A model generated the notes under the pieces. The model did no database searches, was not told the DNA's origin, and saw nothing but the letters and a program-made list of their open reading frames with translations. Below, in pieces: positions 1 to 38,000 of a DNA stretch of 38,000 bases. A program made the translations under genes and the position numbers. The stretch spans positions 1 through 38,000 of the IMG/VR virus record IMGVR_UViG_3300045988_173701; one strand, given 5' to 3'. Source of the stretch: a virus. Position 1 is the first letter of the stretch, and the number at the start of each line of letters is the position of its first letter.

Positions 1-23
1 TTTATACCATTGATTAAGTGAGA

Positions 24-37
24 GCATTCTATATCCC
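24..37 (-). repeat. Recombination site, core GCATTCTATATCCC (sfx-like); mirror of site S5
   Basis: Shared core GGGATATAGAATGC read on the minus strand. The 23-nt flank at 1-23 equals the flank at 1115-1137 in inverted orientation. Confidence 0.7.
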
Positions 38-578
38 AACCAATTAAAACTGAACAGATCGAAGAAGGCTGCACGCTTTACTACTATCCCGATAATACGG
101 TCGAGATCAGCGTTTACGACATGATCATGCGCAATGAAAATACATGGACACTGGGCACTCTCGATAAACCTCCACAACATAAAGCCTGTATGTCTCTCTG
201 TGCATCAGATGCAGACCATACAGGTGTTTTATGGGTTAACGATAGTGGTCAGGTAGTATGCAAGCACAACACTAGCGGCACATATCACTACAACGGCAAC
301 ATGCGTATTCCGCTTAGCTAGTTAATTGAGCTTCAAGCATAAAATAGATGCTTCGACTTCGGCGGTTATTTGAGCGCCACTTGTGTTTCTAACGTTAATT
401 TTTAATTGGCTATCAGCTAAACGGTATGAGCTGATAACGCATGCAGCATTTGCGCTTGCCACGCTTAAATACTGCAATGCGCATGCCGTATATCCTGGCG
501 GAATATCAAGATCAAAGGTAAATAAATTATTGCTTGTGCCATTCATCAAAACCGTTTGCTTTTCGGTCTGATAAAACT

Positions 579-592
579 GGGATATAGAATGC
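579..592 (+). repeat. Recombination site, core GGGATATAGAATGC; mirror of S4
   Basis: Exact core, sitting between cassette-bearing segments. Confidence 0.7.
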
Positions 593-839
593 TAAATTCG
601 CATATAAACAGCAGTTATTGTCCCTTCGACGGTGATTTGACCACTCATCAAATTAATTATTCGAGTGTATGTTAATCCAGAATTAGGACTGTGCATTGGA
701 GCACTGACACTAAAAGCAAGACTATCGGTAGACGTGCCGTCAAACATGCAAGATACGCAAGTATATCCTTCGATGTTTTCAAGAGTAACAAACACTTGTC
801 CATGTGATGCAATTGTTTCGTTTACGTTTACGATTTTAT

Positions 840-850
840 GGGATATAGAA
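840..850 (+). repeat. Degenerate recombination site GGGATATAGAAaac; mirror of S3
   Basis: 11 of 12 core positions match, and it lies exactly at a cassette boundary. Confidence 0.5.
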
Positions 851-1100
851 AACTAGATAAGCCCCAATCCATGAATGGATATTTTTTCGTTGTCAAAAGA
901 AGCATTAGCATTTGTTACATTTCTGATGCCTACATCGAACCCTGTGTTTGTAACGTTTCTTATTTCGACCTGAACGCGCGCATTAGTTACTTGTGCCCAA
1001 ACTCCCCAAAGATCTACAAATGGAACAGGCCACTCTCTGTTTGCTAGATTGTAAGCGCCATTTGCCTCGATAATTGTTTTATCGATAACGTATGTTTGAT

Positions 1101-1114
1101 GGGATATAGAATGC
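1101..1114 (+). repeat. Recombination site, core GGGATATAGAATGC with 23-nt extended flank (1115-1137); mirror of S2
   Basis: 1101-1137 is the perfect reverse complement of 1-37. Confidence 0.7.
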
Positions 1115-1383
1115 TCTCACTTAATCAATGGTATAAACCACAGTCAAATTAACCTTAATGGTCTGAGCTTGCGATGTAACAAGCTGCAAGTCGTTGTGTC
1201 CGTTATCGGTATTCCATAGAGCAGCAGCGTTTACGGAAGATACGGAACAGGCTGAAAGCGTAGGAATAAACGCAACAATAGAATCAGGATCAATGTCCTC
1301 AAAGCCACTAATACTAGTGACTGATTGCGATGCTGTGCTGGTTACATTAAAGCTGACGTTTCTCCTGGTGCGTACCTGAATAT

Positions 1384-1397
1384 GGGATATAGAATGC
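1384..1397 (+). repeat. Boundary recombination site next to the recombinase gene (core GGGATATAGAATGC)
   Basis: The terminal inverted identity ends after GGGATATAGAAT. The right flank GCCATCACTCAC is unique to the recombinase side. Confidence 0.7.
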
Positions 1398-1407
1398 CAT
1401 CACTCAC

Positions 1408-3006: not shown

Positions 3007-4138
3007 AGCGGTGACGAAGCTCGTTGCTGTTACCGCTGCTATCGGTATTGCCACGGCAGCTATGGCATACGCTCCAACTGATAGCATCGTTGGTCCCGAT
3101 GATGCGATGGCCTACACGCAATATGAGCAGATCATTAGCAATGGTCACGGGTCTATTAACCCGTCTTACTTAGTTATCCATGAGACCGCAGACCCAGGCG
3201 CTACGGCAGATAACCTTATGGCTTATTGGCGCAACAATCCTAATGCTTACGTTGTGCACTACACCATGGATCTCGATGGTGATACGGTCTATCATGCAAT
3301 GGCTGACAATCGCAAGGCTTGGCACGTAGGTAACGGCAACGCATATACCGTTGGCATTGAGCTTTGTCATGCGACCAACAAAGCAGATTTTAATGAGCAA
3401 TGGGACGAGGCTGTAAAGTGGGCAGGAGATTACCTCAACGCTAAGGGATGGGGTATTGACCGCTTGCTTTGTCACAATGACTGCCGACTAAAATGGGGCG
3501 GAACTGACCACACAGATCCACTCGGTTACTTTGAGAGCTATGGTAAATCTTGGAGCCAGTTTAAGGCTGCTGTACAGGCTTATATGCGTACAGGTGAGGT
3601 ATCTGGCAGTGCTGGTAGCACTGTAGGTGGTTCTACTTCTAGTGGATCATCTGCAGGTCATAGCGGTACTGGATTTGGCGGTACTTATACGGTAATGGCA
3701 TCTAGCCTCAATATCCGCACCGCACCTAGCACTTCTGCTGGTATTGTCGGTAGCTACTCTCGTGGTGGCAAGGTAGTTCTGGACGATTGGTATAAGATCG
3801 CTGACGGCTATGTTTGGGGCAAATACACTGCTTACAGTGGCAATGTGCGATATGTTGCCGTAGGTAAGCCGACTGGCGGATATGATCCTTCTGATTATCT
3901 GGTCAAGGGCGGTAATGCTACTAGCTCCACTAGCGGTGCAAAGTCTGGTGGCTGGTATACGGTAGATGTCAACACTGCGCTCAACGTGCGCACTGGCCCC
4001 AGTACCAACTACCGCATTACAGGGCAGTTGCACGACGGTTATAAGCTGTATGTGCAATCCGTATCTAACGGTTGGGCTAAGTATCAAGCTTACACTGGTG
4101 CTCGCTATGTAAGCGCACAGTATTTAGATGCGGCGTAA
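2981..4138 (+). CDS. Endolysin: N-acetylmuramoyl-L-alanine amidase (Amidase_2/PGRP-like) with two C-terminal SH3b-like repeats
   Basis: ATG at 2981 after GGAGGTGGAG. HETADPG and the H/C active-site pattern are present. A Gly/Ser linker is followed by two repeated YTV-NVRTxPSTxxxIxG modules. Confidence 0.8.
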   Translation: MIKTLKQTKAVTKLVAVTAAIGIATAAMAYAPTDSIVGPDDAMAYTQYEQIISNGHGSINPSYLVIHETADPGATADNLMAYWRNNPNAYVVHYTMDLDGDTVYHAMADNRKAWHVGNGNAYTVGIELCHATNKADFNEQWDEAVKWAGDYLNAKGWGIDRLLCHNDCRLKWGGTDHTDPLGYFESYGKSWSQFKAAVQAYMRTGEVSGSAGSTVGGSTSSGSSAGHSGTGFGGTYTVMASSLNIRTAPSTSAGIVGSYSRGGKVVLDDWYKIADGYVWGKYTAYSGNVRYVAVGKPTGGYDPSDYLVKGGNATSSTSGAKSGGWYTVDVNTALNVRTGPSTNYRITGQLHDGYKLYVQSVSNGWAKYQAYTGARYVSAQYLDAA

Positions 4139-4179
4139 AATAAAATCCATAGTTAATCAGATTCGTTTATTAACTTAAA

Positions 4180-4210
4180 GGGAGCCTAGTTTGGCTCCCT
4201 AGCTTTTTTG
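4180..4210 (+). terminator. Rho-independent terminator after the endolysin (GGGAGCC-loop-GGCTCCC then T6)
   Basis: 7-bp GC stem plus TAGCTTTTTTG. Confidence 0.6.
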
Positions 4211-4482
4211 TCTGGATGGTAATCTTGCGGATCTCTCGGTTTCCAACTCAAATCATCACGTAGAAATTGAATTTGTTTTATTAGGACATATACACCTAAT
4301 ATAAAAAACAAAGCAAAAACTACTATCCAAAGTAATTCATTTGATAAGATCGCAATTATTGTAGCTGTGAGTGAAAGTAAAAGCTCAGGGATCAGTAGTC
4401 CAATCGCTATTCTTCTATTGCGGATCTTTCTCTTTTGTATTTTTCTCATTGCTTTTAGCCTGTCTTCTGACCAATAGCCCAT
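4186..4482 (-). CDS. Small membrane protein
   Basis: 98 aa with two hydrophobic helices. Minus strand, between the lysis cassette and attP. Confidence 0.4.
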   Translation of the reverse strand: MGYWSEDRLKAMRKIQKRKIRNRRIAIGLLIPELLLSLTATIIAILSNELLWIVVFALFFILGVYVLIKQIQFLRDDLSWKPRDPQDYHPDKKAREPN

Positions 4483-4607
4483 TGTCTATCCTTTCGATCC
4501 TGTGACCATAGTGTCACGAATGGTCACAGTGAAATATCAATAGGTTTAAATCAAGTACAAACAAACGCTGGTATTTATATTCATTTATATATAATATACG
4601 TATGAAC

Positions 4608-4657
4608 GCCCCCTTCTAATCCAAAGGTCGTAGGTTCGAATCCTACTGGGCGCGCCA
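4608..4657 (+). other. Partial tRNA 3' end (T-arm GTAGG-TTCGAAT-CCTAC, acceptor 3' strand, encoded CCA); candidate attP core
   Basis: Canonical T-stem/loop and acceptor 3' strand, but no matching 5' acceptor strand upstream. Lies between the lysis module and the integrase. Confidence 0.65.
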
Positions 4658-4667
4658 GCTTTTTCTA

Positions 4668-4703
4668 CTCTCACCTTGTATTTCAAAGGTGAGAGTTTTT
4701 TAT
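4668..4703 (+). terminator. Rho-independent terminator (TCTCACCTT-loop-AAGGTGAGA then T6)
   Basis: 9-bp stem plus TTTTTTATTT. Confidence 0.6.
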
Positions 4704-4705
4704 TT

Positions 4706-5863
4706 CTAGCTACTCGTGACATTTTCGGTCTCATCTCGGTCACAATAAAACGCCTTATCAAGTATAGCCTTGAAATGCTTGACCTTTGGTTTTGTGTAAT
4801 AGGCATAGGTTGTAGATATATTTGAGTGTCCCAATAGCTTTGCAGCAGTTTCAATAGGAACTCCCAAATCTTCAAGCATGGTGCTATAGCTCGCTCTTAG
4901 GTTCTTCCATGGTATATATACGAATGGATGGTTGGTAAACCATCGTTTGTAGGCAGTTGCCGCCCTGTCGGGGTTTATTGGAGCGCCAAAGCCATCATCA
5001 AGCATCCAAATATCGTTTTCTCTTTCAGCTTCATCTAGGATGCTTTTAAGGCGTTTAGCGTAAGGATCTACCAAAACTGCGATTCGTTTGCTTTCGGGTG
5101 TTTTAGTATCGGGTGATTCTGCGCATTCGTCCGATATCACTAATTCTTTATTTATATATTGCACGGTTCTTCTGATCTTTAACGTTGCATATCCTTCAAA
5201 GAATTCGATATCTTCTCTTTTTAATCCAAATGCTTCTTCTCTTCTAAGACCACCAAACGCTGAAACAATAAAACCAGCGAGCCAATATTCATCTGTCATT
5301 TCTTCTAATAATTCATCTAATGTTTCCTTGTCGTATATTTCGCTATTCATGCGCCGTGAGGTGTTTTTGTTTGGCAGTTTATAACGGCGTGCCATCACAT
5401 TGCGATGTATGTATTCGCCATCTTCTGCGTAGTTAAACATCGCTCTCATCGTTTTTAATAAGCTTTTAGCGGATCCATAGGTAAGTTCTTCAAGATAGCT
5501 TTTAACCTCGGCTACTTGGATATTTTCCATTTCTTTTTTGCCGAATTGGGGACTGATGTGGCATCTATATACGCTTTCATAGCCTCTTACGGTTGCAGGT
5601 GCCTGATTCTTTTTTATATAGGGGTAGTAATAGCGGATCCAAAACTGATCAACGCTTATATTTCGTTTAATTTGATCTGACGGAGCGTTCAGAATCCTTA
5701 ATTCTGCAAGCCTTAGTTCAGCATCTTTTTTTGTGCCATGTATGGTTTCAGATGCTTGACGGCGCTTGCCCGTAATTGGATCGTCGGAGAGGGGATACCT
5801 AATGCGGTATACACCGTTTTTTGTTTTAGATATGGTTCCCCATGTTCGAGTTCTTTTAGCCAT
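4706..5863 (-). CDS. int: Phage integrase (tyrosine recombinase)
   Basis: 385 aa. C-terminal LLGHSNISTTYAYY motif. Adjacent to the tRNA-derived att core. Confidence 0.9.
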   Translation of the reverse strand: MAKRTRTWGTISKTKNGVYRIRYPLSDDPITGKRRQASETIHGTKKDAELRLAELRILNAPSDQIKRNISVDQFWIRYYYPYIKKNQAPATVRGYESVYRCHISPQFGKKEMENIQVAEVKSYLEELTYGSAKSLLKTMRAMFNYAEDGEYIHRNVMARRYKLPNKNTSRRMNSEIYDKETLDELLEEMTDEYWLAGFIVSAFGGLRREEAFGLKREDIEFFEGYATLKIRRTVQYINKELVISDECAESPDTKTPESKRIAVLVDPYAKRLKSILDEAERENDIWMLDDGFGAPINPDRAATAYKRWFTNHPFVYIPWKNLRASYSTMLEDLGVPIETAAKLLGHSNISTTYAYYTKPKVKHFKAILDKAFYCDRDETENVTSS

Positions 5864-5910
5864 GCTAAAATCAACCTACCTTCCGTTTGTTCGGGGGTAT
5901 TATCTGGAAC

Positions 5911-5952
5911 CTCGCTTCTCGGTCGCCAAACTTCGAGCGAGGTTCTTTTTTA
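5911..5952 (+). repeat. 42-bp direct repeat, copy 1 (hairpin plus T-run; overlaps the Abi_2 stop codon)
   Basis: CTCGCTTCTCGGTCGCCAAACTTCGAGCGAGGTTCTTTTTTA, identical to 7211-7252. Confidence 0.9.
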
Positions 5953-7074
5953 ATTGCTTATATTCGTTTTTCTTCCTCTACTATCAACTGCGGTTATACT
6001 AGTGTGCTTTATACCCAGTTTCTTAATTAGGTAATTTCTTAATCTGCCATTATGCACGACTCGATGTACTTTTATTCCTAGTACCGATTCTTGCAATAGC
6101 AAATCACTCCAATTAGGAGGTATATTTGCAATATTTAAAATGTCTGAAAATTCGCTTAATAGGTTAGTTGCGTCTCGCAACAACAGCGCACCATAAGACA
6201 AGCTGGTATCTTCCGCAAAAAGCCTATTGGTATTCAGTAGCTTCAGTAAGACGAGGATGATATAAAAAGGATTTCCGTTATCTCCTTCAGCTCCATGTAT
6301 TCTTTTTGGACGAGAAACGAGCTTTTTTCCGCAAATTTGCCCAAAGTGCGCACATGTATTTCTAATACCAGAAATAGATCTTGCCCAGCTTGTAAGTTCT
6401 TCTTGGGTAACTCCAAATGATTCAGCTACACCGTTTCTGACAGATTTGCTTCTTGTGTTGCTGTATAACATCGAAAGCGTTCCAAAAGACATAAGCTCTA
6501 CGGCTAACCAGGTCGGAGCGTCTCCGTATTTTTCGTAAGCTTCAATAACGTTAATGTTTCTATTTTTTATTTGGCGCTTGAATTCTCTTTGATAAGTTTG
6601 CAGGAAATTTTTGAAAAAGTCCTTTTTCTTAAAGTTTTTAGGATCTCTATGGGCGAAAGCTCCTCGTTGCATTGACAGGCGATATGAGTATTGGGCGCGG
6701 AACTGCAATTCGAATAATCCGATATATTCCATAAACAAGGCTTGCAGTTTGCGATCAAATAGGATAATTCGATGCAATGTTTTCATGGATGCACCTGACA
6801 TCATCTTTCCGTTTTCGTCTGAGAAAAGCCGAAAGTATCCACTTGCATGTTGATAGCTTATTCTGTTTAGTATGTATTCTGCCTGATCAGTAGATCCATC
6901 TATAAATCCTCTTTTTACTGCATGCTCTCTCAATTCGCTTAATTTGAGAGGTGAAGGTGGATCTGATAGGGGAGTGAATTCTGTCGTAAAATGAACGACC
7001 GAAGGATTTACGCCAACGTTTCCGCGACTACCTTCGGTTCTGTCAGCGCTAATTGTATCACAGTCGTTATACAT
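5950..7074 (-). CDS. Abortive-infection protein, Abi_2 (AbiD/AbiF-like) family
   Basis: 374 aa. ISYQHASGYFRLF and LFDRKLQALFMEYIGLFELQFRAQYSY match my memory of the Abi_2 YYRL/FDRKLR pattern. Confidence 0.65.
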   Translation of the reverse strand: MYNDCDTISADRTEGSRGNVGVNPSVVHFTTEFTPLSDPPSPLKLSELREHAVKRGFIDGSTDQAEYILNRISYQHASGYFRLFSDENGKMMSGASMKTLHRIILFDRKLQALFMEYIGLFELQFRAQYSYRLSMQRGAFAHRDPKNFKKKDFFKNFLQTYQREFKRQIKNRNINVIEAYEKYGDAPTWLAVELMSFGTLSMLYSNTRSKSVRNGVAESFGVTQEELTSWARSISGIRNTCAHFGQICGKKLVSRPKRIHGAEGDNGNPFYIILVLLKLLNTNRLFAEDTSLSYGALLLRDATNLLSEFSDILNIANIPPNWSDLLLQESVLGIKVHRVVHNGRLRNYLIKKLGIKHTSITAVDSRGRKTNISN

Positions 7075-7210
7075 TTTTTCTCCTAAAATCAGAAAGCCAC
7101 TAGCCGTAAACGACTAGCGACCTTCCTTTGTCAAAGGCTCTCGTAGATCACCAATGACTGATTCACTGTCGTTTAGTTTATATTTCACAATGAAATATTT
7201 CAATAATTCA

Positions 7211-7252
7211 CTCGCTTCTCGGTCGCCAAACTTCGAGCGAGGTTCTTTTTTA
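7211..7252 (+). repeat. 42-bp direct repeat, copy 2 (overlaps the GHKL gene stop codon)
   Basis: Identical to 5911-5952. Confidence 0.9.
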
Positions 7253-8545
7253 TTGACCAATATTAAAATGTCTTTTTAGTGCTTCATTAATCATCATTTC
7301 ATTTATCGGCGATACGTTTGTTATTGAAAAATAGGTCATGTATTTTACGAAACCGACTTCCTCTATCATTTTCCCTAACAGTTCGTCTGCATAAGAAGAA
7401 GTAACTATACTTGTGCTGTCGAAGTCGATTAGAATCTTTTTACCGCTCTGTTCGAATGCGTTTCTTATTACATTTCTTAGCCTGTTGGCAGCATATCTCG
7501 TTCCTGTCCCCTGAGATTCCTTTGCTATTTCGAACACAAGCGTATTTTCATTTAGTTCGTGGTCCTCTTCCCATAAGTCAGTTGGAATATATCCAAATAA
7601 AGCGTTTTCTACATTTATTTCTTTATCGACGGTGATTCTAAAATCAATAGTTGTTCCTCCGCTGATAGATGTTGCGATCTTTGAAATGACGGGTTCTGAA
7701 GATTCATTATCTTTAATATGGTCGAAAGTAACCCTTGTTTTGCCTGTAGAGATTTCCAATAATCCACAATTGTCTTTAATTAGCTGAGATAACATCCAAA
7801 GACCTCTGCCTGCTCCATTCCCAGAGGTAATATTTCTGGAAATTGCAAGTTGGATAGCTTCATCTTCATTTGCTGGAGAATATTTAGATCCTTCAAATGA
7901 TTTTAGGATTCCTTGGCCATTATCGTGAATAGTAAAAGCAACTGTTCTATTGTCTTGGTGGTATTGAGCCATTACGTATCCTACTGCATTTTCTACAGGC
8001 TCATTTGATGGTAGGGAATGGTTGATGACGTTATCCATTACTTCATTTAAGCAAAGCTCAATGCTAGGTAAAACACCTTTTACCAGCTTTGCATGCGTTC
8101 TTAAAGAATGAACTATTCCGCTTACAATTTTATCAATATCTTTCGAGGTGAATTTCCATACCCTGTCTAGGAATTCGCTTCTATAGATGTCTTCATTTCG
8201 GTATTCCTTTGGAGATATAAATGATGTATGTCCTAAATATGATCCTGCGAGATTCTGTGTCTTTAGAAAGACGCATCCTTTTTCTTTTGTGTAATAATCT
8301 AAGAGTGCGGAAACTGGTACACACATACTTGGATATGCTGAATCTGATTTTCCAATATTGCGAATCTTGAATATTTTTATACCGAGTTTAAGATTAGATT
8401 CTACGACTCTGGAAACGTGGTTAACCGATCCACGTTTTGCTATGTTGAGAGATATTATTTTATATCGGCTTGATTTGTCGTTTTCCGTCATAGTGTTCTT
8501 TTCTCTTGACTTGAAATAAAATCCTGTTATTATTCGTTGTGTCAC
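7250..8545 (-). CDS. GHKL-family ATPase (HATPase_c-like) with a possible STAS-like C-terminal region
   Basis: 431 aa. N-box LNEVMDNVINHS, G1 box HDNGQGI, G2 box SGNGAGRGLWM. Alternative start at Met-18 (8494). Confidence 0.6.
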   Translation of the reverse strand: MTQRIITGFYFKSREKNTMTENDKSSRYKIISLNIAKRGSVNHVSRVVESNLKLGIKIFKIRNIGKSDSAYPSMCVPVSALLDYYTKEKGCVFLKTQNLAGSYLGHTSFISPKEYRNEDIYRSEFLDRVWKFTSKDIDKIVSGIVHSLRTHAKLVKGVLPSIELCLNEVMDNVINHSLPSNEPVENAVGYVMAQYHQDNRTVAFTIHDNGQGILKSFEGSKYSPANEDEAIQLAISRNITSGNGAGRGLWMLSQLIKDNCGLLEISTGKTRVTFDHIKDNESSEPVISKIATSISGGTTIDFRITVDKEINVENALFGYIPTDLWEEDHELNENTLVFEIAKESQGTGTRYAANRLRNVIRNAFEQSGKKILIDFDSTSIVTSSYADELLGKMIEEVGFVKYMTYFSITNVSPINEMMINEALKRHFNIGQ

Positions 8546-8591
8546 CTCCGACGCCTCCTAACAGTGCGAAACACGGAGGTTTTCTTTTTTG
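8545..8591 (+). terminator. Hairpin (ACCTCCG ... CGGAGGT) followed by TTTTCTTTTTTG, plus-strand orientation
   Basis: 7-bp stem, 23-nt loop, T-run. Confidence 0.4.
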
Positions 8592-8606
8592 TGTTATGTA
8601 TCGCTC

Positions 8607-9098
8607 CTATTCCTCATCGTCTGAATAGTATTCGTTGTACTTCTGCTCGAGTTCTCTTCTTAATTTCCTGCTACGTTCGATTGTCTCTCTAGCTGTTTTT
8701 GTAATCTGATAACTCTTTGACCCGAACTCTTCATAGATAACGGTGATAAAGTGCATTCTCTTTAGAACTGTTATATGAACAATTATTTCATCTGTATTTC
8801 TGACAATTACGCCGTCGCGCGCGTTGTATATTTCCCACAGCAATGCTTTTCGTGTGTCTGAAAGCGAAAGAATAGATCTTTTCGTTTCGACAGAGGGAAG
8901 CGAAGCGTAAAACCTATGCGCTGCGACTCCTATTACAAACGATAGGCCGCAACAGGCAGCAAGTGGAAATGGATAGTTTAGCCACGCATCAACCACCTGA
9001 CCAAACAGCGCAACAATAGATGCACCAAATAGCAAGAAAAACAGCGAATTTATTGCGTTGGGAATTTGACCCGATAGTTTTTCCAATACCTTCTTCAT
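8607..9098 (-). CDS. Membrane protein (lysogeny-region moron; possible superinfection exclusion)
   Basis: 163 aa. N-terminal hydrophobic helices, acidic C-terminus. Confidence 0.45.
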   Translation of the reverse strand: MKKVLEKLSGQIPNAINSLFFLLFGASIVALFGQVVDAWLNYPFPLAACCGLSFVIGVAAHRFYASLPSVETKRSILSLSDTRKALLWEIYNARDGVIVRNTDEIIVHITVLKRMHFITVIYEEFGSKSYQITKTARETIERSRKLRRELEQKYNEYYSDDEE

Positions 9099-9100
9099 CT

Positions 9101-9150
9101 ATCCCACTTTCTGGTTACCAGTCGCAGGCCCCTCCGCTTTAGCTCGAATC
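9101..9150 (-). repeat. Non-coding copy of the cI 3' end (about 46 of 49 nt identical to 9645-9694)
   Basis: ATCCCACTTTCTGGTTACCAG..GCAG.CCCCTCCGCTTTAGCTCG is shared. The downstream copy encodes nothing here. Confidence 0.8.
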
Positions 9151-9639
9151 TTAAATATCATTTTTCGCATCCTCGATAATGTCCTGGTTTTTCTTGATAA
9201 TTCTCCTAATTTCAGGTTTAAGCTCGTATCTATATCCATCGCGAGTAGATACTTTTACGCAGAATTCGAGGTACTTGTCTGTACTGGGTTTCGCATATCC
9301 CATGGCACCGATAGCACTGTAAGCGATAGCACTGTAAGAGGATTCTTCAGGATCTTCTTCGATGAAATATCCGTTTATGTACGCTCGTGCGATATTTACT
9401 TTCACTTCATATGGCGCTTCTTTAAGCTCTGAAACTATTCCATCTCTATGCTCTAAACGATCGCAGTATTTTTCTTTTAAAATCCAGCCTAAAGCCAATC
9501 CAAAAATCGACACTAAAAATAAAAGAGTAGATGCAAATAATGGATTACTAAAACTAATAAACGAAGGCGATATAGTAATGCCAAAGATTGCGAAAATCGA
9601 AGCAATTATTGACAGAGTGCTATTTATGTTTCGTATCAA
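9151..9639 (-). CDS. Membrane protein (lysogeny-region moron)
   Basis: 162 aa. TTG start. N-terminal transmembrane helices. Confidence 0.45.
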   Translation of the reverse strand: MIRNINSTLSIIASIFAIFGITISPSFISFSNPLFASTLLFLVSIFGLALGWILKEKYCDRLEHRDGIVSELKEAPYEVKVNIARAYINGYFIEEDPEESSYSAIAYSAIGAMGYAKPSTDKYLEFCVKVSTRDGYRYELKPEIRRIIKKNQDIIEDAKNDI

Positions 9640-9642
9640 TGT

Positions 9643-10005
9643 TTATCCCACTTTCTGGTTACCAGCTGCAGACCCCTCCGCTTTAGCTCGCGCGCTTTCT
9701 GAAGCTCGGATTCCCCTCACCGAGCCAAGCGCCGCATCCTTCCCCTCATCGCTTAATGATTCGAAAGTATTGTTTAAGTCTCTTTGGCGCTCGTCGGAAT
9801 AAGTGCCTATATATTCATAGCGTCCTGCTAATTCATCGAGAGTGCAATCTAAGACATCAGCAATACGTGCAGCATCTTCGAGTGGTAGTGCGGTTTCTTG
9901 GCGTTCCCATGCACCTACGATTCTCGAAGTTGAATTTATTTTTTTGGCGAGGTCTTCTTGGCGCAAACCGATTCTTTTGCGAAGAGCTTTTAGTTGTAAG
10001 TTCAT
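9643..10005 (-). CDS. CI-like repressor (XRE-family HTH)
   Basis: 120 aa. HTH in LRQEDLAKKINSTSRIVGAWE. Divergent from the cro-like gene. Confidence 0.7.
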   Translation of the reverse strand: MNLQLKALRKRIGLRQEDLAKKINSTSRIVGAWERQETALPLEDAARIADVLDCTLDELAGRYEYIGTYSDERQRDLNNTFESLSDEGKDAALGSVRGIRASESARAKAEGSAAGNQKVG

Positions 10006-10019
10006 TTTCTGTACCTCCT

Positions 10020-10154
10020 GGCGTGATTATACACGCTTAACGTAGAAAAATATACGAAAACCGTAGAAAAGTATTGACAGGGTTCGAAACATGAATATGA
10101 TGATATAAAAAGTACGAAAACGGTAGATTCTGAATAGTTCGGAGGTGACAGAAA
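10020..10154. promoter_or_regulatory. Divergent cI/cro promoter-operator region with repeated TACGAAAAC(C/G)GTAGA and CGTAGAAAA motifs
   Basis: Repeats at about 10041, 10063-10082 and 10112-10130. TTGACA at about 10084 and TATGAT 16 nt downstream. Confidence 0.5.
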
Positions 10155-10376
10155 TTGACGAAATACAGTAAAGAATCTGTTGGTCGTCGCCTTAGGAGCG
10201 GTTTGGTAGATAAGGGTATTAGCACCGAGCAGTTCGCCGACATGATTGGCGTGAGCACTTATACCGTCAAAGAATGGTGCGGAGGTCGCTGTGGGATGAG
10301 CCTTGAAAACGCTGTTGCGGTATGCGATGCGCTTGATTGGCCCCTTGATCGCTTGGTTGTTCGTAGGGGTCAGTAA
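10155..10376 (+). CDS. Cro-like HTH regulator
   Basis: 73 aa. TTG start with GGAGGTGA RBS. HTH in ISTEQFADMIGVSTYTVKEW. Confidence 0.6.
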   Translation: MTKYSKESVGRRLRSGLVDKGISTEQFADMIGVSTYTVKEWCGGRCGMSLENAVAVCDALDWPLDRLVVRRGQ

Positions 10377-10546
10377 TGAATTGCGGATTTTGGATGTCCA
10401 CGATGGCACTATGGGCTCTTTTATTCATCATGGCACTTTTAGCTAAGGCTGCTGGACATGTCGATTTCGCTAACGTTGTGTTTGCGGTTTCGATTTTTCT
10501 TGCTGGAGCAGCGTTCGGTTGGTCTAGGGGAAATAGGTAGGCACTC

Positions 10547-10783
10547 ATGAATAAGTATCAATCAATTAGCGATGATGATGGCGTTTATATTGAAACGCTC
10601 GAAAGCATTGTTGATCGCATTCATGATTTTACGCACCTTCGCAAGAGCGAGATCACTCTGCTCAATGTTGGTTTTACTGTCAAAGAAGAAGATGGCTGCA
10701 AATACCTAGATTGTGACTTTGCATTCTTTCGCATTGGCATTGTGGAATTTCAAGTTGATTTTCATTCCTTGGAGATTGTTTAG
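10547..10783 (+). CDS. Hypothetical early protein
   Basis: ORF with upstream RBS-like GGGGAAATAGGTAGG. Confidence 0.35.
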   Translation: MNKYQSISDDDGVYIETLESIVDRIHDFTHLRKSEITLLNVGFTVKEEDGCKYLDCDFAFFRIGIVEFQVDFHSLEIV

Positions 10784-10785
10784 CG

Positions 10786-10986
10786 ATGGATAACAACAAC
10801 GGCTTTTCAGCAATAGAAATCGCGCTTTGTGTGCTCGTTTTCTTATCCAGCATTCTCCTTTGGCTGGTGTTCATGTTCAACCTTTTAGGTATGACGACTA
10901 TCGCCTTTTGGTTGGCGCTTGTTGAGGTTCTAGTTTGTATCGCATTTGGACTTTTGATTATTAGGGCGGTGATCAGATGGAAATGA
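10786..10986 (+). CDS. Small membrane protein
   Basis: 66 aa with two hydrophobic helices. Coupled to the upstream ORF. Confidence 0.3.
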   Translation: MDNNNGFSAIEIALCVLVFLSSILLWLVFMFNLLGMTTIAFWLALVEVLVCIAFGLLIIRAVIRWK

Positions 10987-11074
10987 TTCCAGCGTATTTG
11001 ATGATCATAGCAAGTCTGATTTCAGGATATGTATTCAGCTATTTGGAATGGCGAAAGCGTAATAAGTAGGGGAG

Positions 11075-11317
11075 GTGGTCGAATTGGCAAAGGTTACCAA
11101 GCCGCAGATTAAAACTCGGCTTTATACGATCAAAGAAGCTTCAGAGCTTTGGAACGTCCCATTAACTGTTTTATATGGCGAAATACGTCAAGGGCGACTG
11201 AGGGCAGTTATGAGACGTGGATGTGTTAAAGGCTACCTGGTTACCGAACAGATCATGGCTGATTGGATTGAAAACTCAATGGTCGATGTGTTCGATGTAA
11301 AAGGCGGCTTAGTTTAG
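11075..11317 (+). CDS. Excisionase-like or MerR-like HTH DNA-binding protein
   Basis: 80 aa. YTIKEASELWNVPLTVLYGEIRQGRL resembles excisionase-family HTH proteins. Confidence 0.45.
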   Translation: MVELAKVTKPQIKTRLYTIKEASELWNVPLTVLYGEIRQGRLRAVMRRGCVKGYLVTEQIMADWIENSMVDVFDVKGGLV

Positions 11318-11331
11318 AAGGGTTCCAGATA

Positions 11332-11673
11332 ATGATTACTGAAAAGCAGGTTTTAGATTCTCTCGAGCGCTATATCGATGCTGCTCAAGCTTATAGAAAA
11401 GAGCTTATGGATAAAGCAGAACAAGAGGGCAAGCATGGTAGTTCCGATCTTCTCTATCACGCACTTTGTCAATCTTTCAACGGTGTGATTTTGTTCGTTA
11501 CTGATCTGGTGAAAGGTATTCAGTTAGACGAGAAAAAATTCTCTGCTGCTACCTCTGTTGATCTGGCTATGTTTGCCGTTGACGCTGATATGAGCAAGAT
11601 TTTGGATACAAATATTAACGCCTTGCGATCTTTTATGCTTGAAATCGAGGTGGATAAGGTAAGCGCTCAATAG
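11332..11673 (+). CDS. Hypothetical protein
   Basis: 113-aa ORF with RBS. Confidence 0.4.
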   Translation: MITEKQVLDSLERYIDAAQAYRKELMDKAEQEGKHGSSDLLYHALCQSFNGVILFVTDLVKGIQLDEKKFSAATSVDLAMFAVDADMSKILDTNINALRSFMLEIEVDKVSAQ

Positions 11674-12017
11674 CGAGGGTTTTAGTAGGTAGGGCGTGGC
11701 ATGGAGATAGCGGATATTCCGCGATAAACCCCGATTAAACTTTTTTGCTTTTTTAGTCCCTTTTGGAGCAGTGACCAAAATCCAACTCCATGTCACATCC
11801 TGCCTACTAAGGGCAGGGCCTTACTGGATGGGTAGCGAGTGGTTTTTGTTTTCGCCTTTCGTTTCCAGCTCGCTACCTGTTCGGTTAAGGCTGAATACCT
11901 ACATATAAGCGCAAGCTGGACTTGATGGAATAGCGGCTCTGCATGGAATGGCTTGCGCTTGTATCTGGGTATTCCAGAAGCAGTTTGAAAAGCGAATACG
12001 TAGATAGGTGGTATGAA

Positions 12018-12905: not shown

Positions 12906-13226
12906 ATGTCTATATGTCCATCGTGCGGCGGGTATTTGCCGCGAAACAGTGAAAGGTCAATTTGTCGCGAGTGCCACCTGAAGCGCGAGATTGAGTCGTT
13001 GCGTTGGGAAGTGGGAGAGCTTTATCGAATTCTTCCGATGCATATTCGTGCGAAATTGCGCAGCCAAGAGCAGGTTTATGTTCGTCAGGCCAATGTTAGC
13101 GTTTCTGGAAGATCCACCTCAAAAAGATTAAAGCGCTTATACCTTGAGCGTGATGCCCTTAAAAAGCAGGTTAGATCGTATCGTAAAGCTGCGATCGAGT
13201 GCGGTGTGCTTCGGAGTGGTAAGTAA
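12906..13226 (+). CDS. Zinc-finger protein (CxxC ... CxxC) in the integrase-2 cassette
   Basis: CPSCGG ... CRECH. Stop overlaps the integrase start (TAATG). Confidence 0.45.
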   Translation: MSICPSCGGYLPRNSERSICRECHLKREIESLRWEVGELYRILPMHIRAKLRSQEQVYVRQANVSVSGRSTSKRLKRLYLERDALKKQVRSYRKAAIECGVLRSGK

Positions 13227-14404
13227 TGGCATCGTCTCGTTTTAACTCAAATACGGGCATGATCGAGGTACGTGCTTATGCTGGCAAGGATCCGATTACG
13301 GGTAAGGTGCGGAATTTATTTCGCTCGCTTCCTGGAGACTCGGAGCCTGAAGCGGTAATAGGTGTTTGTGCAGAGTTACAAGAACAAGCAGATGCACTAA
13401 AGGGTCGATCTATTCCTTTTACTGTTAAGAGCGCAATTGAGTACTACTTTGATTGCATAGCGTCAGACCATTCAGCTACCACTATGGATGCGTATAGGTC
13501 AAATGCGCGTTGCTATGTGTATCCCTTTATTGGTGATAGGAGATTAGACGATCTTCAACCCTTTGAAATTACAAGGCTTTATCAGAGGCTCATTGATAAG
13601 GGCGGCAAGGATGAAAACCCTGTATCAAATTCTACGGTTGCCAAGTTGCATGCTTGGTTAAAACCCGCTTTTGATTATTTGGTTGGTTTAGGTATTGCAG
13701 GTTCTAATCCGTTTTCTTATGTAAAACGACCACGCGAAAACCAGGAAGAAGCGTTTGCGTTAAGCGAGATCGATCTAGCGGTTTTAATGGATTATCTCTA
13801 CGAAGCATCGAATCTTGATTCTGATGAATTCGACATGCTAAACGTTGCTTTGTTGTTGTGTTTGAATACAGGCATTAGACGTGGTGAGCTTGCAGGTTTT
13901 AGGGTGGGCGATTACAAGTCGCGCACTTCATCTATTTCGGTTAAGTCGAACTTGGTGCAAACCACAAAAGGATTAGTGCGCAAAGTTCCCAAGTCTAAGC
14001 ACTCAAGGCGCAATATATCGCTTCCTATTGATGTCTGTAATGTTCTTGATGGATATCTTTTCTGGCAGCGCGAAATGCTCGATGTTCACGGAATTCGCCA
14101 ACGTAGCGATACTCCTCTTTTTTGCGACAAGGAAGGCGCACCTATTCATCCTCGTATGTTTGCAAAGCATTTGCGCTACCTGGTAGGCAAATTAAAGCTG
14201 GATAGATCAATCCACTTGCATACCTTGCGTCACACCCATGCTACAGCGCTTTTAGATTTAGGTGTGAATATAAAAACTATTTCGGAGCGTTTGGGCCATT
14301 CAGATGTCGGGGTTACCTTGCGAATTTATTCCCATGTGTTGCCAGGTCGCGATGAGCAGGCAGCTAATACGTTTTCCAAAGCGGTGATGCGCCGTGACGT
14401 ATAA
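13226..14404 (+). CDS. Second phage-type integrase (tyrosine recombinase)
   Basis: 392 aa. C-terminal HTLRHTHATALLDLG ... RLGHSDVGVTLRIYSH. Confidence 0.85.
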   Translation: MASSRFNSNTGMIEVRAYAGKDPITGKVRNLFRSLPGDSEPEAVIGVCAELQEQADALKGRSIPFTVKSAIEYYFDCIASDHSATTMDAYRSNARCYVYPFIGDRRLDDLQPFEITRLYQRLIDKGGKDENPVSNSTVAKLHAWLKPAFDYLVGLGIAGSNPFSYVKRPRENQEEAFALSEIDLAVLMDYLYEASNLDSDEFDMLNVALLLCLNTGIRRGELAGFRVGDYKSRTSSISVKSNLVQTTKGLVRKVPKSKHSRRNISLPIDVCNVLDGYLFWQREMLDVHGIRQRSDTPLFCDKEGAPIHPRMFAKHLRYLVGKLKLDRSIHLHTLRHTHATALLDLGVNIKTISERLGHSDVGVTLRIYSHVLPGRDEQAANTFSKAVMRRDV

Positions 14405-33866: not shown

Positions 33867-35816
33867 ATGGTAAATGATATTTATTACGAAGCTCCTGATA
33901 GTCAAAATGACGAAATTATTACCAATGCTAATTTTGAGACTTCATTTGGTGAAGATGAAAACATTGTTACCTTAAAACGTTCCATCAGTGATCCAATTTT
34001 GCAAGGTGGTTTTATCTACTCTGAGACCGACGAAAACGGCGGCATTATCGACTCCATGGAAGAAGTTACCGGAGAAGATGGAGAAGTTACCTATAGCGGA
34101 AGAAGCTACACAGGTATTTTAGATAGTCATATTATAAGGCCTGAAATTGGAACACTTTCAGGAGATGCAAATGATGTTATTGCCAAGGTTATTGATCATC
34201 TAGATCTTGGTGATGTATTTAAAGCTTCTCCTGAAAAGAGCGGTATAGCTATTAGCTATGAGGTCGATGATTACCTAACTGGTTATAGCGGTTTGTGTGC
34301 CATACTGAAATCTTCTAATGCGAAACTAAGTATAAGTCATACAGAGAGTTTGGTTGAACTAAGTGCTTTGCCTGTTGCTTCTGCAGGAGGGGTTGAATTT
34401 GGTAGTGATAATTTTAAGTTAACTATCAAAAAGGTTTTTCGCACTACTAACCACATGATTTGTCTAGGACCAAGCGAGGTTATAGATTTATATGTTGACG
34501 AATCGGGCAATGTTTCCAAGACTCAACATTTCTTCGGTGTTGATCAAATAACATCAATCTTTGACCAGCGTGAAACTTCATCTGATGATTTAGAAGAGAA
34601 AGCGACTGAGGAGCTTTTAGGCTTACAGGATGCCGATTCTTGCGAAATAGACCTTTTAAGCGATGACGAATCACTCGATGTTGGCGATATCGTAAGTGGT
34701 GTCGATGACATTACAGGAATTGAAGTTGTTGCGGTTGTTAAGCAAAAGAGTTTCAGTATTTCTGAAAATGAGCAACACCATAGCTATGAAGCAGGAAATC
34801 CTTCAATGACGCAATCTAAGGGTGGATATTCTGGTAGTTCTAACAATAGTGACGGATCGGTTGCGCTTGGTTTTAAAGTTGGCGATACGTTGGTTCTTAT
34901 TGATGGTGTGCTTGATGCAAAGGTATCACCAGAGCAGCTTGAAAGCTTAAGCCAACTTGTTGCTACAGCAAGGCAAGAAGCGTCTAATGCTGAAGCTACA
35001 GCTAATCAGGTAGCGAATGATCTTGATACCAAGGCGGAATTTGAGCATTATCACGATGCGAGTGATATAACTACTGGAGTATTAGATCAGAGTCGCGGTG
35101 GCACTGGTTCTGGCAACACAAAAGGATCGCGATATAACCTCTTAGGCGATATTGGGAGCGAAACTTCAATTCCCGGAGATGAAAGCGCAGTTGTCTTTGC
35201 GTACAGCTCTCCTTCGATATCAAACGGGGCCATATTTAAGCGCTCGTTAAGTTCTGTTTGGGATTGGATCTATCAAAAGATAAAGAGTGTAGTAAAGCCT
35301 ACAGATATAGGTGCTGCTACGTCTGCTCATGTTCATGACGTGGCTACTGATTCATCAAATGGTTTTATGAGTGCCGATGACCGCGAAAAGCTTGATGGTA
35401 TTGCAGATGGTGCCAACAAGACGGTAGTGGATTCGTCGCTTAGCGATACGAGTGCAAATCCTGTACAAAACAAGGTTGTTAAGTCGGCTCTCGATGATAA
35501 AGCCGATTCTGATCACGAACATAACTATGCCGCGTCGCTTAGTCCCGGGGGATCGGCATCTAGTGCTGAAAAATTAAAAACTGCACGAACTATCACTTTT
35601 CAAGGAGCCGTTAGTGGCTCCTTTTCTTTTGATGGATCTGAAAACGTAACAGTAAACCTCGAAGGAGATAGTCAAGCTGCTGGTTTTCTCGCTGCTCATC
35701 CTATTGGAAGTATCTTTTTTACAACAAACTCAACCGATCCTGGTGACACATATGGTGGTGTTTGGAAGAAATTACCGAGCGACAACGGTGGTTATCTCTT
35801 TCTACGTGAAAGTTAG
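33867..35816 (+). CDS. Tail-associated or tail-fibre protein (Tal position) with C-terminal His-box fibre-repeat motifs
   Basis: 649 aa. SAHVHDVATD ... SDHEHNYAASL ... AEKLKTARTITFQGAVSGSFSFDGSENVTV. Confidence 0.6.
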   Translation: MVNDIYYEAPDSQNDEIITNANFETSFGEDENIVTLKRSISDPILQGGFIYSETDENGGIIDSMEEVTGEDGEVTYSGRSYTGILDSHIIRPEIGTLSGDANDVIAKVIDHLDLGDVFKASPEKSGIAISYEVDDYLTGYSGLCAILKSSNAKLSISHTESLVELSALPVASAGGVEFGSDNFKLTIKKVFRTTNHMICLGPSEVIDLYVDESGNVSKTQHFFGVDQITSIFDQRETSSDDLEEKATEELLGLQDADSCEIDLLSDDESLDVGDIVSGVDDITGIEVVAVVKQKSFSISENEQHHSYEAGNPSMTQSKGGYSGSSNNSDGSVALGFKVGDTLVLIDGVLDAKVSPEQLESLSQLVATARQEASNAEATANQVANDLDTKAEFEHYHDASDITTGVLDQSRGGTGSGNTKGSRYNLLGDIGSETSIPGDESAVVFAYSSPSISNGAIFKRSLSSVWDWIYQKIKSVVKPTDIGAATSAHVHDVATDSSNGFMSADDREKLDGIADGANKTVVDSSLSDTSANPVQNKVVKSALDDKADSDHEHNYAASLSPGGSASSAEKLKTARTITFQGAVSGSFSFDGSENVTVNLEGDSQAAGFLAAHPIGSIFFTTNSTDPGDTYGGVWKKLPSDNGGYLFLRES

Positions 35817-35825
35817 GGGGTAGGT

Positions 35826-36880: not shown

Positions 36881-36886
36881 GTGAGA

Positions 36887-36900
36887 GCATTCTATATCCC
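36887..36900 (-). repeat. Recombination site S2 (GCATTCTATATCCC) with 23-nt extended flank at 36864-36886
   Basis: 36864-36900 is the reverse complement of 37964-38000. Confidence 0.75.
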
Positions 36901-37409: not shown

Positions 37410-37422
37410 CATTCTATATCCC
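37409..37422 (-). repeat. Recombination site S4 (GCATTCTATATCCC)
   Basis: Exact core. Confidence 0.75.
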
Positions 37423-37977: not shown

Positions 37978-38000
37978 TCTCACTTAATCAATGGTATAAA

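What the first reader, a model, noticed from the sequence alone, without database searches (positions are those of the whole stretch)
5911..7252. 42-bp perfect direct repeat terminates both the Abi_2 gene and the GHKL ATPase gene (cassette signature)
The same 42 nt (hairpin plus T6, overlapping the stop codon) follow both the Abi_2 ORF and the GHKL ORF. Copies are at 5911-5952 and 7211-7252, and their flanks diverge at once. The shared 3' module suggests these defence-type genes are exchanged as cassettes by recombination at the repeat. The repeat could also let one cassette loop out.
Basis: seen in the sequence. Interest (0 to 1): 0.55.

Follow-up and report, generated by a model that had tools for sequence, protein, structure and literature searches.

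The report
Repeated hairpin bounding swappable prophage defence genes
A 42-base hairpin next to the integrase gene of a human-gut (Eggerthellaceae) temperate phage is duplicated because two defence-type genes were stacked there. Related phages show the same hairpin bordering at least eight different cargo genes, so this is a clear but ordinary example of a phage defence-gene hotspot shuffled by recombination at a short conserved boundary sequence.

Summary
An exact 42-mer lies at 5911-5952 and 7211-7252 (0 expected by chance), and each copy contains the TAA stop of a minus-strand gene: AbiD/Abi_2 and a GHKL-ATPase+DUF4325 protein.

The description needs two corrections. The hairpin+T6 is a canonical terminator only on the plus strand, antisense to both genes. 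Copy 2 is truncated inside the stem (7 versus 12 bp).

The cassette reading is largely borne out by relatives from about 20 independent gut metagenomes. The identical hairpin sits beside int and abuts at least 8 different cargoes: four Abi_2 variants, three GHKL-DUF4325 variants and a toxin-antitoxin-chaperone-like triple.

Single-cargo states exist (GHKL-hairpin-int; Abi307-hairpin-int). Prophage L099 carries the same truncated copy, promoter and Abi374 unit behind a different upstream gene. L099 differs from its near-isogenic relative L002 by exactly this 1300-bp unit.

The most likely history is one out-of-register join that stacked two morons, followed by homologous recombination between the 42-bp copies. 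Nothing supports an integron-like site-specific mechanism.

A second linker, D4 (47 nt, 1-3 copies), behaves the same way downstream of the repressor gene.

Verdict: a new member of a known kind (moron / defence hotspot with boundary sequences), of moderate interest.

The parts
5907..5952 (+). T1: the full boundary hairpin. It has a 12-bp stem (GGAACCTCGCTT...AGCGAGGTTC[T]) and a T6 run at 5946-5951. The 42-mer copy 1 is 5911-5952. It lies 48 nt upstream of the int start codon and contains the TAA stop (5950-5952, minus strand) of Abi_2.
   Evidence: dG -17.6, gap 0 to the T-run, + strand; -19.7 on + versus -17.8 on -. It is 40/40 to 42/42 identical in all relatives.
7211..7252 (+). T1': the truncated second copy of the 42-mer. 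It lacks the outer 5 bp of the left stem arm and contains the TAA stop (7250-7252, minus strand) of the GHKL-DUF4325 gene. In gene sense it is joined directly to the Abi_2 promoter region (GCGAG|TGAATTATTGAAA).
   Evidence: 7-bp stem, -10.4 kcal/mol, 5-nt gap to the T-run; it fails the terminator criteria. The identical junction is in L099.
5950..7074 (-). Abi374: an Abi_2 / AbiD-family gene of 374 aa and the cargo of the 1300-bp unit.
   Evidence: Pfam PF07751 E=3.6e-38; PADLOC AbiD E=5.2e-50. A 99%-identical protein occurs in prophage L099 behind a different upstream gene.
7075..7210 (-). Promoter-like site (TTGAAA-17-TAAACT, 7203-7175) and structured 5' leader of Abi374. Together with the gene and one hairpin copy it makes the 1300-bp unit.
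   Evidence: consensus match only. It is homologous to the upstream regions of other Abi_2 cargo genes. L108 is a promoter/leader mosaic with a junction at the conserved AAAyGACAGTGA.
7250..8491 (-). GHKL (HATPase_c_2/HATPase_c) + DUF4325 (STAS-like) gene. The probable start is ATG 8491 (413 aa); the ORF list and gene callers extend it to GTG 8545 (431 aa).
   Evidence: the homologue P0002 is 413 aa. Found alone next to T1-int in L095, L096 and L097. A 41%-identical variant is in L103.
8515..8590 (.). M77: a conserved module at the repressor-side border of the defence slot (hairpin CCTCCG...CGGAGG next to an A/T run).
   Evidence: 97-100% identical in L002, L084, L086 and L102-L106 while the cargo between it and T1 differs. 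The strand of function is unclear.
4706..5863 (-). Tyrosine integrase (385 aa). Its first 100-150 nt, together with T1, form a roughly 250-nt island of 96-100% identity between phages that are otherwise 79-83% identical.
4613..4657 (+). attP core: the 3' 45 nt of a tRNA-Arg(UCU) gene, followed by a strong + strand terminator (stem 4667-4696, then a T-run).
   Evidence: homology to prophage L099 ends at 4613; complete tRNA-Arg tct at the L099 junction.
9644..9690 (-). D4 copy A: a 47-nt linker that forms the last 47 nt of the cI-like HTH repressor gene (9643-10005).
9100..9146 (-). D4 copy B: the non-coding copy between the 162-aa (9151-9639) and 163-aa (8607-9098) membrane-protein genes. It ends at the start codon of the 163-aa gene.
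   Evidence: L099 lacks the 162-aa gene and has cI/D4 directly followed by the 163-aa gene. Relatives carry 1-3 copies.

Best explanation
The window is a complete temperate siphovirus-like phage contig. Its host is an uncultured human-gut Eggerthellaceae bacterium, and it integrates into tRNA-Arg(UCU).

The space between int and the cI-like repressor is an accessory or defence-gene hotspot. The int-side border of this hotspot is a highly conserved hairpin, T1.

T1 is a canonical intrinsic terminator only for plus-strand transcription, which runs antisense to int and to the cargo. It therefore most likely insulates the lysogenically expressed cargo genes from read-through coming from the tRNA/attL side or from the late operon. 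In gene sense it is merely a 3' stem-loop.

The second copy, T1', is a remnant and not an independent terminator. It arose when a phage of the form 'cargo-T1-int' and a phage of the form 'promoter-Abi374-T1-int' were joined out of register. That was one illegitimate join, between the T1 stem and a point 7 nt upstream of the Abi374 -35 box, and it stacked two morons.

Since then the two 42-bp copies, the roughly 250-nt T1/int-5' island, M77 and the D4 linkers have served as short homologies for ordinary homologous recombination between co-resident or co-infecting relatives. This swaps the upstream cargo and adds or removes the 1300-bp unit.

Shown: the repeat, the cargo diversity, the single and double states, the shared junction and the exact 1300-bp difference. 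Inferred: the order of events, the recombination pathway and the strand on which T1 acts.
For: Repeat and anatomy.

Host and integration: the L099 prophage sits in a 115-kb contig with a complete tRNA-Arg at the junction, and a flanking MetQ is identical to an Eggerthellaceae MAG protein.

Variable cargo abutting an identical T1:
- Abi374, Abi307 (gene X), Abi312 (gene Y) and Abi307b, which are 22-41% identical to each other at the protein level;
- GHKL-DUF4325 of 413 aa, its 89%-identical variant, and a 415-aa variant at 41%;
- an HTH + SecB-like triple.

Single-cargo states: GHKL-T1-int in L095, L096 and L097 and in L103; gene X-T1-int in L001/L002, L084, L102 and others.

The same T1'|promoter junction lies behind GHKL (window) and behind gene X (L099).

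L099 versus L002: the flanks are 97-99% identical on both sides and the loci differ by one 1300-bp unit.

Informative sites to the right of T1: L099 matches the window for about 180 nt and then is mostly L002-like. The right crossover is therefore inside the int 5' end, and the left crossover can only be in the 42-mer.

T1 is 40/40 identical where the flanks are 79-83% identical, inside a roughly 250-nt island of high identity.

Strand: only the + strand meets the terminator criteria, and no canonical minus-strand terminator lies in 4000-12000.

Parallel case: the D4 linker occurs in 1-3 copies, bracketing small genes that are present or absent among relatives. A promoter/leader mosaic occurs in L108.

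From the literature: 42 bp exceeds the roughly 30 bp quoted as the minimum for Red-beta recombination, and homologous recombination at short or diverged homologies generates phage mosaics (PMC3945230). Morons are defined as promoter-gene-terminator add-ons (PMC3594210).
Against: - No recombination event was observed directly. All evidence is comparative, so insertion and deletion cannot be told apart.
- An 'Abi374 alone next to M77' donor state was not found.
- No phage-encoded single-strand-annealing recombinase was recognised among the ORFs scanned (the scan was not exhaustive).
- Perfect conservation of all 40 nt, loop included, is more than a simple terminator needs. It hints at an extra sequence-specific role (int promoter or regulator site, or antisense RNA) that this model does not explain.
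- In five of the cargo types the TAA stop fuses directly with the A-run. That is tidier than random joins would predict. L108, with a 95-nt spacer, is the exception.
- Terminator function was predicted only, on either strand.
Confidence: 0.7

Rival explanations
1. Functional duplicate only. Each defence gene simply carries its own copy of a common terminator or 3' stabiliser. All exchange happens through the longer homologies (int, cI, early genes), and the 42-bp copies play no part in recombination.
For: The conserved island around T1 extends about 250 nt into int. The right-hand breakpoint of the L099 mosaic lies in int, not in T1. Single-cargo swaps need only int-side and M77/D4-side homology.
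Against: Copy 2 is truncated within the stem and is a poor hairpin or terminator on either strand, so it looks like a by-product and not a selected duplicate. The window and L099 share the identical T1'|promoter junction but have non-homologous genes immediately upstream. The only homology available for that crossover with a 'cargo-T1-int' partner is the 42-mer.
Confidence: 0.17
2. Site-specific cassette system. T1 is an attC-like folded recombination site. The promoter-Abi374-T1 unit is excised as a circle and re-inserted at T1 by a phage tyrosine recombinase, in an integron-like mechanism.
For: Each cargo ends in the same imperfect palindrome, which has GAAC...GTTC outer arms. The site lies next to a tyrosine recombinase gene, and the phage encodes three such enzymes. 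The identical insertion point occurs in two backbones. The stop codons abut the site in most cargoes.
Against: All three recombinases score 29-54 bits against the integron-integrase model TIGR02249, whose cut-off is 265. The junction GCGAG|G falls before the G of GTTC, not at G|TT, and GTTCCAG does not fit GTTRRRY (direct reading). The cassette has its own promoter and points towards int. There are never more than two T1 copies in about 20 loci. T1 has no similarity to the attP core. The right border of the transferred segment in L099 is about 180 nt beyond T1.
Confidence: 0.05
3. T1 is primarily the terminator of a short plus-strand antisense RNA of about 75-90 nt. This RNA would start at an extended -10 (TGCTAAAAT, about 5862-5870) and cover the int ribosome-binding region. 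The duplicate is an irrelevant remnant.
For: The 5870-5953 plus-strand RNA folds into two hairpins plus a U-run (-28.5 kcal/mol, z=-3.4). G-U pairs make the plus-strand fold more stable than the minus-strand fold. The island, loop included, is perfectly conserved.
Against: The promoter is only a consensus look-alike, read by eye, that overlaps the int start codon, where conservation is expected anyway. The promoter scan did not call it. There is no Rfam match and no covariation is available because the element is invariant. This reading is compatible with the best explanation and not exclusive of it.
Confidence: 0.08

Closest known systems
Morons (independent promoter-gene-terminator additions in temperate phages; Juhala/Hendrix, reviewed in PMC3594210)
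   Same: A single accessory gene with its own promoter-like site and leader, present in some close relatives and absent in others. It sits in the lysogeny module and has lower GC (0.36-0.39) than the genome (0.42).
   Different: The downstream 'terminator' is canonical only on the opposite strand. It is shared word for word by all morons occupying the slot, so it belongs to the slot border and not to the individual moron.
Prophage and satellite defence hotspots (P2/P4 hotspots, Rousset et al. 2022, PMC9122126)
   Same: A fixed position between conserved phage genes, many alternative anti-phage-type cargoes among near-identical backbones, and exchange proposed to involve homologous recombination.
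   Different: The phage group and host are different (gut Eggerthellaceae). The slot is int-proximal and not next to cos. Here the border elements are short, discrete non-coding sequences (42-mer, M77, D4), and a duplicated border records a stacking event.
Linker or 'boundary sequence' model of modular phage evolution (Susskind & Botstein 1978; Clark et al. 2001, cited from my own knowledge; experimental support for recombination at short or diverged homology in PMC3945230)
   Same: Short sequences at module junctions are conserved far better than their surroundings (40/40 versus 79-83%). They coincide with the mosaic breakpoints.
   Different: Those examples are lambdoid coliphages with Red/Rad52-type recombinases. 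No such recombinase was recognised here, and the linkers occur as direct repeats within one genome.
Integron gene cassettes (attC sites, IntI)
   Same: Each cargo gene ends in the same imperfect palindrome, a tyrosine recombinase gene is adjacent, and cassettes can be stacked.
   Different: There is no IntI-type integrase, no GTTRRRY core and no fixed G|TT junction. The cassettes have promoters and point towards int, and there are at most two copies. This is a resemblance only, not membership.

Membership tests
Rho-independent (intrinsic) terminator | GC-rich stem-loop immediately followed by a U-run on the transcribed strand of the gene it terminates | tested here: not met
   On the gene-sense (minus) strand the run is A6 and precedes the stem. 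After the stem come CAGAUAAU (copy 1) and UGAAUUAU (copy 2). My scan found no canonical minus-strand terminator in 4000-12000.
Rho-independent (intrinsic) terminator | The same signature on the opposite (plus) strand | tested here: met
   Copy 1 has a 12-bp stem at -17.6 to -19.7 kcal/mol, with T6 directly after the stem. Copy 2 fails: 7-bp stem, 5-nt gap. This is a prediction only, and activity was not measured.
Moron | Own promoter | tested here: inconclusive
   TTGAAA-17-TAAACT at 7203-7175 (9/12 consensus match). It is homologous to the promoter regions of other Abi_2 cargo genes. There are no expression data.
Moron | Presence or absence as a discrete unit among closely related phages | tested here: met
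   L099 versus L002 differ by one 1300-bp unit with 97-99% identical flanks. The window versus L095/L096 shows the same in more diverged backbones.
Moron | Base composition differing from the neighbouring phage genes | tested here: met
   Abi374 0.39, its promoter and leader 0.36 and GHKL 0.36, against 0.42 for the genome and 0.47 for cI. The difference is modest.
Prophage defence hotspot | Fixed locus between conserved genes with many alternative cargoes in near-identical backbones | tested here: met
   With one and the same integrase protein (P0233), the slot holds gene X, gene Y, Abi307b or GHKL415. Overall there are at least 8 cargo types.
Prophage defence hotspot | Cargo consists of anti-phage systems | tested here: inconclusive
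   The Abi_2 genes hit PADLOC AbiD (E 1e-40 to 1e-50). GHKL-DUF4325 has only a weak partial DrmA hit. The triple has a weak PD-T4-9_C hit. A GHKL-DUF4325 homologue neighbours a SIR2_2 protein. No phenotype was tested.
Integron cassette / attC | IntI-type integron integrase | tested here: not met
   TIGR02249 scores are 30, 54 and 29 bits for the three recombinases, against a cut-off of 265.
Integron cassette / attC | attC core sites RYYYAAC/GTTRRRY with the crossover at G|TT; promoterless cassettes read from Pc, away from intI | tested here: not met
   The right arm is GTTCCAG and the duplication boundary is GCGAG|G. The cassette has its own promoter-like site and is co-oriented with int.
Recombination linker / boundary sequence | A short sequence at a module junction conserved far above its flanks, coinciding with mosaic breakpoints | tested here: met
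   T1 is 40/40 identical against 79-83% in the flanks, within a 250-nt island. Homology between backbones ends at T1/T1'. The left breakpoint of the L099 mosaic is confined to the 42-mer.
Recombination linker / boundary sequence | Recombination actually initiates or resolves in the linker | not testable with these tools
   This needs crosses or deep long-read population data.

The most novel reading that the evidence does not exclude
The whole int-to-repressor region of this phage family may be a linker-delimited cassette array. D4 linkers (up to three copies, each ending at the next gene's start codon) and T1 (up to two copies, each starting at the previous gene's stop codon) would be maintained as dedicated docking sequences. 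They would let accessory or defence genes be stacked, swapped and dropped without a dedicated recombinase. T1 would be kept invariant because it also controls int, as an antisense terminator/sRNA or an overlapping promoter. This would be a recombinase-free, integron-like organisation in a phage.
Probability: 0.12. Interest if true: 0.65.

Novelty: new member of a known kind. Interest (0 to 1): 0.4.

Why it matters
This gives a clean natural series: single, double and swapped states, with one shared junction. It shows how short non-coding boundary sequences let temperate phages of an uncultured gut actinobacterium reshuffle defence genes. The series makes the old linker model of phage mosaicism directly testable in this family.

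It also provides a practical handle. Searching for the invariant 40-mer next to int retrieves a catalogue of candidate defence genes. One of these, the GHKL+STAS-like (DUF4325) protein, has no assigned defence role.

The case also warns against reading 'hairpin + T-run after a stop codon' as that gene's terminator without first checking the strand.

Tried and rejected
- Megablast of 4500-9200 against the INPHARED phages gave no match.
- An exact 35-mer search in the GTDB representative genomes gave none.
- The integrase search in GTDB genomes gave only hits of 28% identity or less, which were useless for context. IMG/VR held only one true relative.
- An Rfam scan of 4000-10500 at E<=1 found nothing on T1, M77 or D4, only a sub-threshold chance hit on the tRNA fragment.
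- I first read L088 as lacking the 162-aa gene. That was a gene-calling difference. L088 is colinear with the window, and the locus that really lacks the gene is L099.
- I first took M77 for a second plus-strand terminator. Folding is ambiguous (the minus-strand hairpin is the more stable), so I make no claim.
- Logan contigs that end exactly at the repeats (L090, L092, L094, L100) reflect k=31 assembly breaks, not excision products.
- The integron/attC reading was rejected (and the junction sequence).
- Int acting on T1 as a secondary att site was rejected, because T1 has no similarity to the 45-nt attP core.
- An assembly artefact was rejected, because there are at least 4 independent assemblies.
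- A fuzzy-regex motif scan timed out and was replaced by blastn-short.
Full report
**Observation.** The 42-mer CTCGCTTCTCGGTCGCCAAACTTCGAGCGAGGTTCTTTTTTA occurs exactly twice, at 5911-5952 and 7211-7252. No further match appears at up to 3 mismatches, and none was found in 100 shuffles. All genes in this region lie on the minus strand:
- int, 4706-5863;
- an Abi_2/AbiD gene, 5950-7074;
- a GHKL-ATPase + DUF4325 (STAS-like) gene, 7250-8491 (listed to 8545);
- two small membrane-protein genes;
- a cI-like HTH repressor, 9643-10005.

The last three bases of each repeat copy are the reverse complement of the TAA stop of the Abi_2 gene and of the GHKL gene. The flanks diverge at once. The arrangement is reproduced identically in three other assemblies and at about 97% identity in a fourth, so it is not an artefact.

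**Two corrections to the description.**
- The T6 is on the plus strand. In the mRNAs it is an A6 that precedes the hairpin, and what follows the hairpin (CAGAUAAU, UGAAUUAU) is not a U-tract. On the plus strand, copy 1 is a textbook terminator with a 12-bp stem at about -18 to -20 kcal/mol and T6 directly after it. No canonical minus-strand terminator lies anywhere in 4000-12000.
- The left repeat boundary falls inside the stem. Copy 1 reads GGAAC|CTCGCT..., while copy 2 reads ATTCA|CTCGCT... and so loses the outer 5 bp. That leaves a 7-bp stem at -10.4 kcal/mol, 5 nt away from the T-run. Copy 2 is a remnant.

**What the element belongs to.** The window is a whole 38-kb contig of a temperate phage. 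Position 4613-4657 carries the 3' 45 nt of a tRNA-Arg(UCU) gene, which is the attP core. In the 115-kb contig behind L099, a 96-97% identical prophage sits at a complete tRNA-Arg. It is flanked by host genes, one of which (MetQ) is identical to a protein of an Eggerthellaceae MAG. All relatives come from human-gut metagenomes. Nothing similar is in the INPHARED phages or in the GTDB representative genomes.

**Comparative series.** I recovered about 20 related loci using the 31-mer core, exact-protein look-ups and homologues of the three proteins. In every one the hairpin core is 40/40 to 42/42 identical and lies 48 nt upstream of int. The gene that abuts the hairpin differs:
- Abi374 in the window;
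- Abi307, 'gene X', in L001/L002, L084, L102 and others;
- Abi312, 'gene Y', in L085 and L109;
- Abi307b in L108;
- GHKL-DUF4325 of 413 aa at 89% identity in L095-L097;
- GHKL-DUF4325 of 415 aa at 41% identity in L103;
- an HTH + SecB-like three-gene set in L086.

The four Abi_2 proteins are only 22-41% identical to each other. Several of these cargoes sit behind one and the same integrase protein. On the repressor side the slot is usually closed by a second conserved module, M77 (window 8515-8590), which is 97-100% identical.

**The four key states.**
1. GHKL-T1-int, without Abi374 (L095, L096, L097).
2. Gene X-T1-int (L002 and others).
3. GHKL-T1'-promoter-Abi374-T1-int (the window, L087-L089).
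4. Gene X-T1'-promoter-Abi374-T1-int (L099).

States 3 and 4 share the identical junction GCGAG|TGAATTATTGAAA, which lies 7 nt upstream of the -35 box of the Abi374 promoter-like site. The 1342-nt T1'-to-T1 segment differs at only 38 positions between them. L099 and L002 are 97-99% identical on both sides and differ by one 1300-bp unit, apart from one A in the A-run.

To the right of T1, L099 follows the window for about 180 nt and then mostly follows L002. The right crossover is therefore in the int 5' region. On the left, the only homology available between a 'cargo-T1-int' genome and a 'cargo-T1'-Abi374' genome is the 42-mer. At least one T1 x T1' exchange is therefore required, unless the same illegitimate junction arose twice.

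**Conservation.** Between the window (with the unit removed in silico) and L095, the GHKL and int bodies are 78-83% identical. A roughly 250-nt island comprising the end of GHKL, T1, the spacer and the first 100-150 nt of int is 96-100% identical. This fits a recombination hotspot, a conserved int control region, or both. Because T1 never varies, no covariation test of its structure is possible, and Rfam has no match.

**Mechanism proposed.**
- T1 is the int-side border element of a defence or moron hotspot. On the plus strand it is a terminator and probably shields the lysogen-expressed cargo from antisense read-through. That read-through would enter from the tRNA-Arg gene, which reads into the prophage on that strand, or from the late/lysis operon on the circular genome. 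Both of these have their own plus-strand terminators at 4179-4209 and 4667-4701. This part is inferred.
- T1' was created by one out-of-register, illegitimate join that stacked a promoter-bearing Abi_2 moron between an existing cargo and int.
- After that, the direct repeats and the other conserved borders are substrates for homologous recombination that swaps, adds or deletes cassettes. A length of 42 bp is above the roughly 30 bp quoted as sufficient for Red-beta-type recombination, and recombination at short or diverged homologies is an experimentally supported source of phage mosaics (PMC3945230).
- I found no SSAP-type recombinase among the ORFs scanned. The enzyme is unknown and could be host RecA.

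**Supporting parallels in the same module.**
- The 47-nt D4 sequence is the 3' end of the repressor gene (9644-9690) and recurs at 9100-9146. Relatives carry one to three copies. Each copy ends at the start codon of the next small gene, and the bracketed genes (162, 163, 186, 83/102 aa) are present or absent in different combinations. For example, L099 lacks the 162-aa gene.
- L108 combines a gene X-type promoter with an Abi374-type leader, joined at a conserved AAAyGACAGTGA motif.

Short conserved sequences are thus repeatedly the seams of this region.

**Rivals.**
- An integron-like site-specific system was considered because of the palindromic 3' module and the adjacent recombinase. It fails every defining feature tested (junction sequence; promoter-bearing cassettes co-oriented with int; at most two copies).
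- A purely functional duplicate with no recombination role is contradicted by the truncation of copy 2 and by the shared junction behind different genes.
- A short antisense RNA ending at T1 is possible but unsupported beyond folding. It is compatible with the main model.

**Comparison and verdict.** This is a moron or defence hotspot of the kind described for other prophages (PMC3594210, PMC9122126). Its borders behave as in the classical linker/boundary-sequence model. What is new is the phage family and host, the very clean natural series, and the recorded stacking scar. It is not a new kind of system. The claim that the element 'terminates both genes' does not hold as stated.

Interest is 0.4. 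The novelty class is a new member of a known kind.

Noticed in passing
window 1-1398 and 36603-38000 (with 1408-2337 and 33867-36880): The contig ends in a perfect 1398-bp inverted terminal repeat. This repeat contains 43-nt inverted sites (1-43 versus 1095-1137) and TGGGATATAGAATGC sites every 261-283 bp (578, 839, 1100, 1383). A 309-aa tyrosine recombinase gene (1408-2337, minus) adjoins it, and tail-fibre-like ORFs run into the other copy. An independent assembly (L087) breaks at about 1341 and about 36713. It looks like a shufflon-type multi-inversion region for tail-fibre 3' ends that confuses assemblers.
   Followed up: partly
window 9100-9146 and 9644-9690; L099, L103, L108, L109: A second repeated linker, D4 (47 nt, 94% identical between the two copies). 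One copy is the 3' end of the repressor gene and the others are non-coding. Relatives carry 1-3 copies, each ending right at the start codon of the next small membrane-protein gene, and the bracketed genes vary in presence.
   Followed up: partly
window 7250-8491 (minus); L098: The GHKL ATPase (SpoIIAB-like HATPase_c_2) fused to the STAS-like DUF4325 is a recurrent single-gene cargo of this defence slot, in three diverged variants. A 54% homologue sits next to a 1167-aa SIR2_2 protein in L098. It has no NCBIfam name and only a weak partial PADLOC DrmA hit, so it is a candidate uncharacterised defence or partner-switching protein.
   Followed up: partly
window 13226-14404 (plus): A third tyrosine recombinase (392 aa, XerC/D-like at sub-threshold scores) is encoded in the early region, separate from the integrase and the putative invertase. 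Its role is unknown.
   Followed up: no
L086 330-1551: One relative carries a three-gene cargo in the slot: a 139-aa protein of unknown function, a 129-aa HTH protein and a 140-aa SecB-like protein. It has weak PD-T4-9_C and SecB hits and resembles a toxin-antitoxin-chaperone system.
   Followed up: partly
L108 3640-3910 versus window 7075-7210 and L099 8640-8915: The upstream region of the L108 Abi_2 gene is a mosaic. The promoter matches that of gene X and the leader is 94% identical to that of Abi374. The switch occurs at a conserved AAAyGACAGTGA motif near the predicted transcription start.
   Followed up: no
window 5862-5951 (plus): A possible extended -10 (TGCTAAAAT) overlaps the int start codon. 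It could drive an antisense RNA of about 80 nt with two hairpins that ends at T1 (-28.5 kcal/mol, z=-3.4). This is speculative.
   Followed up: no
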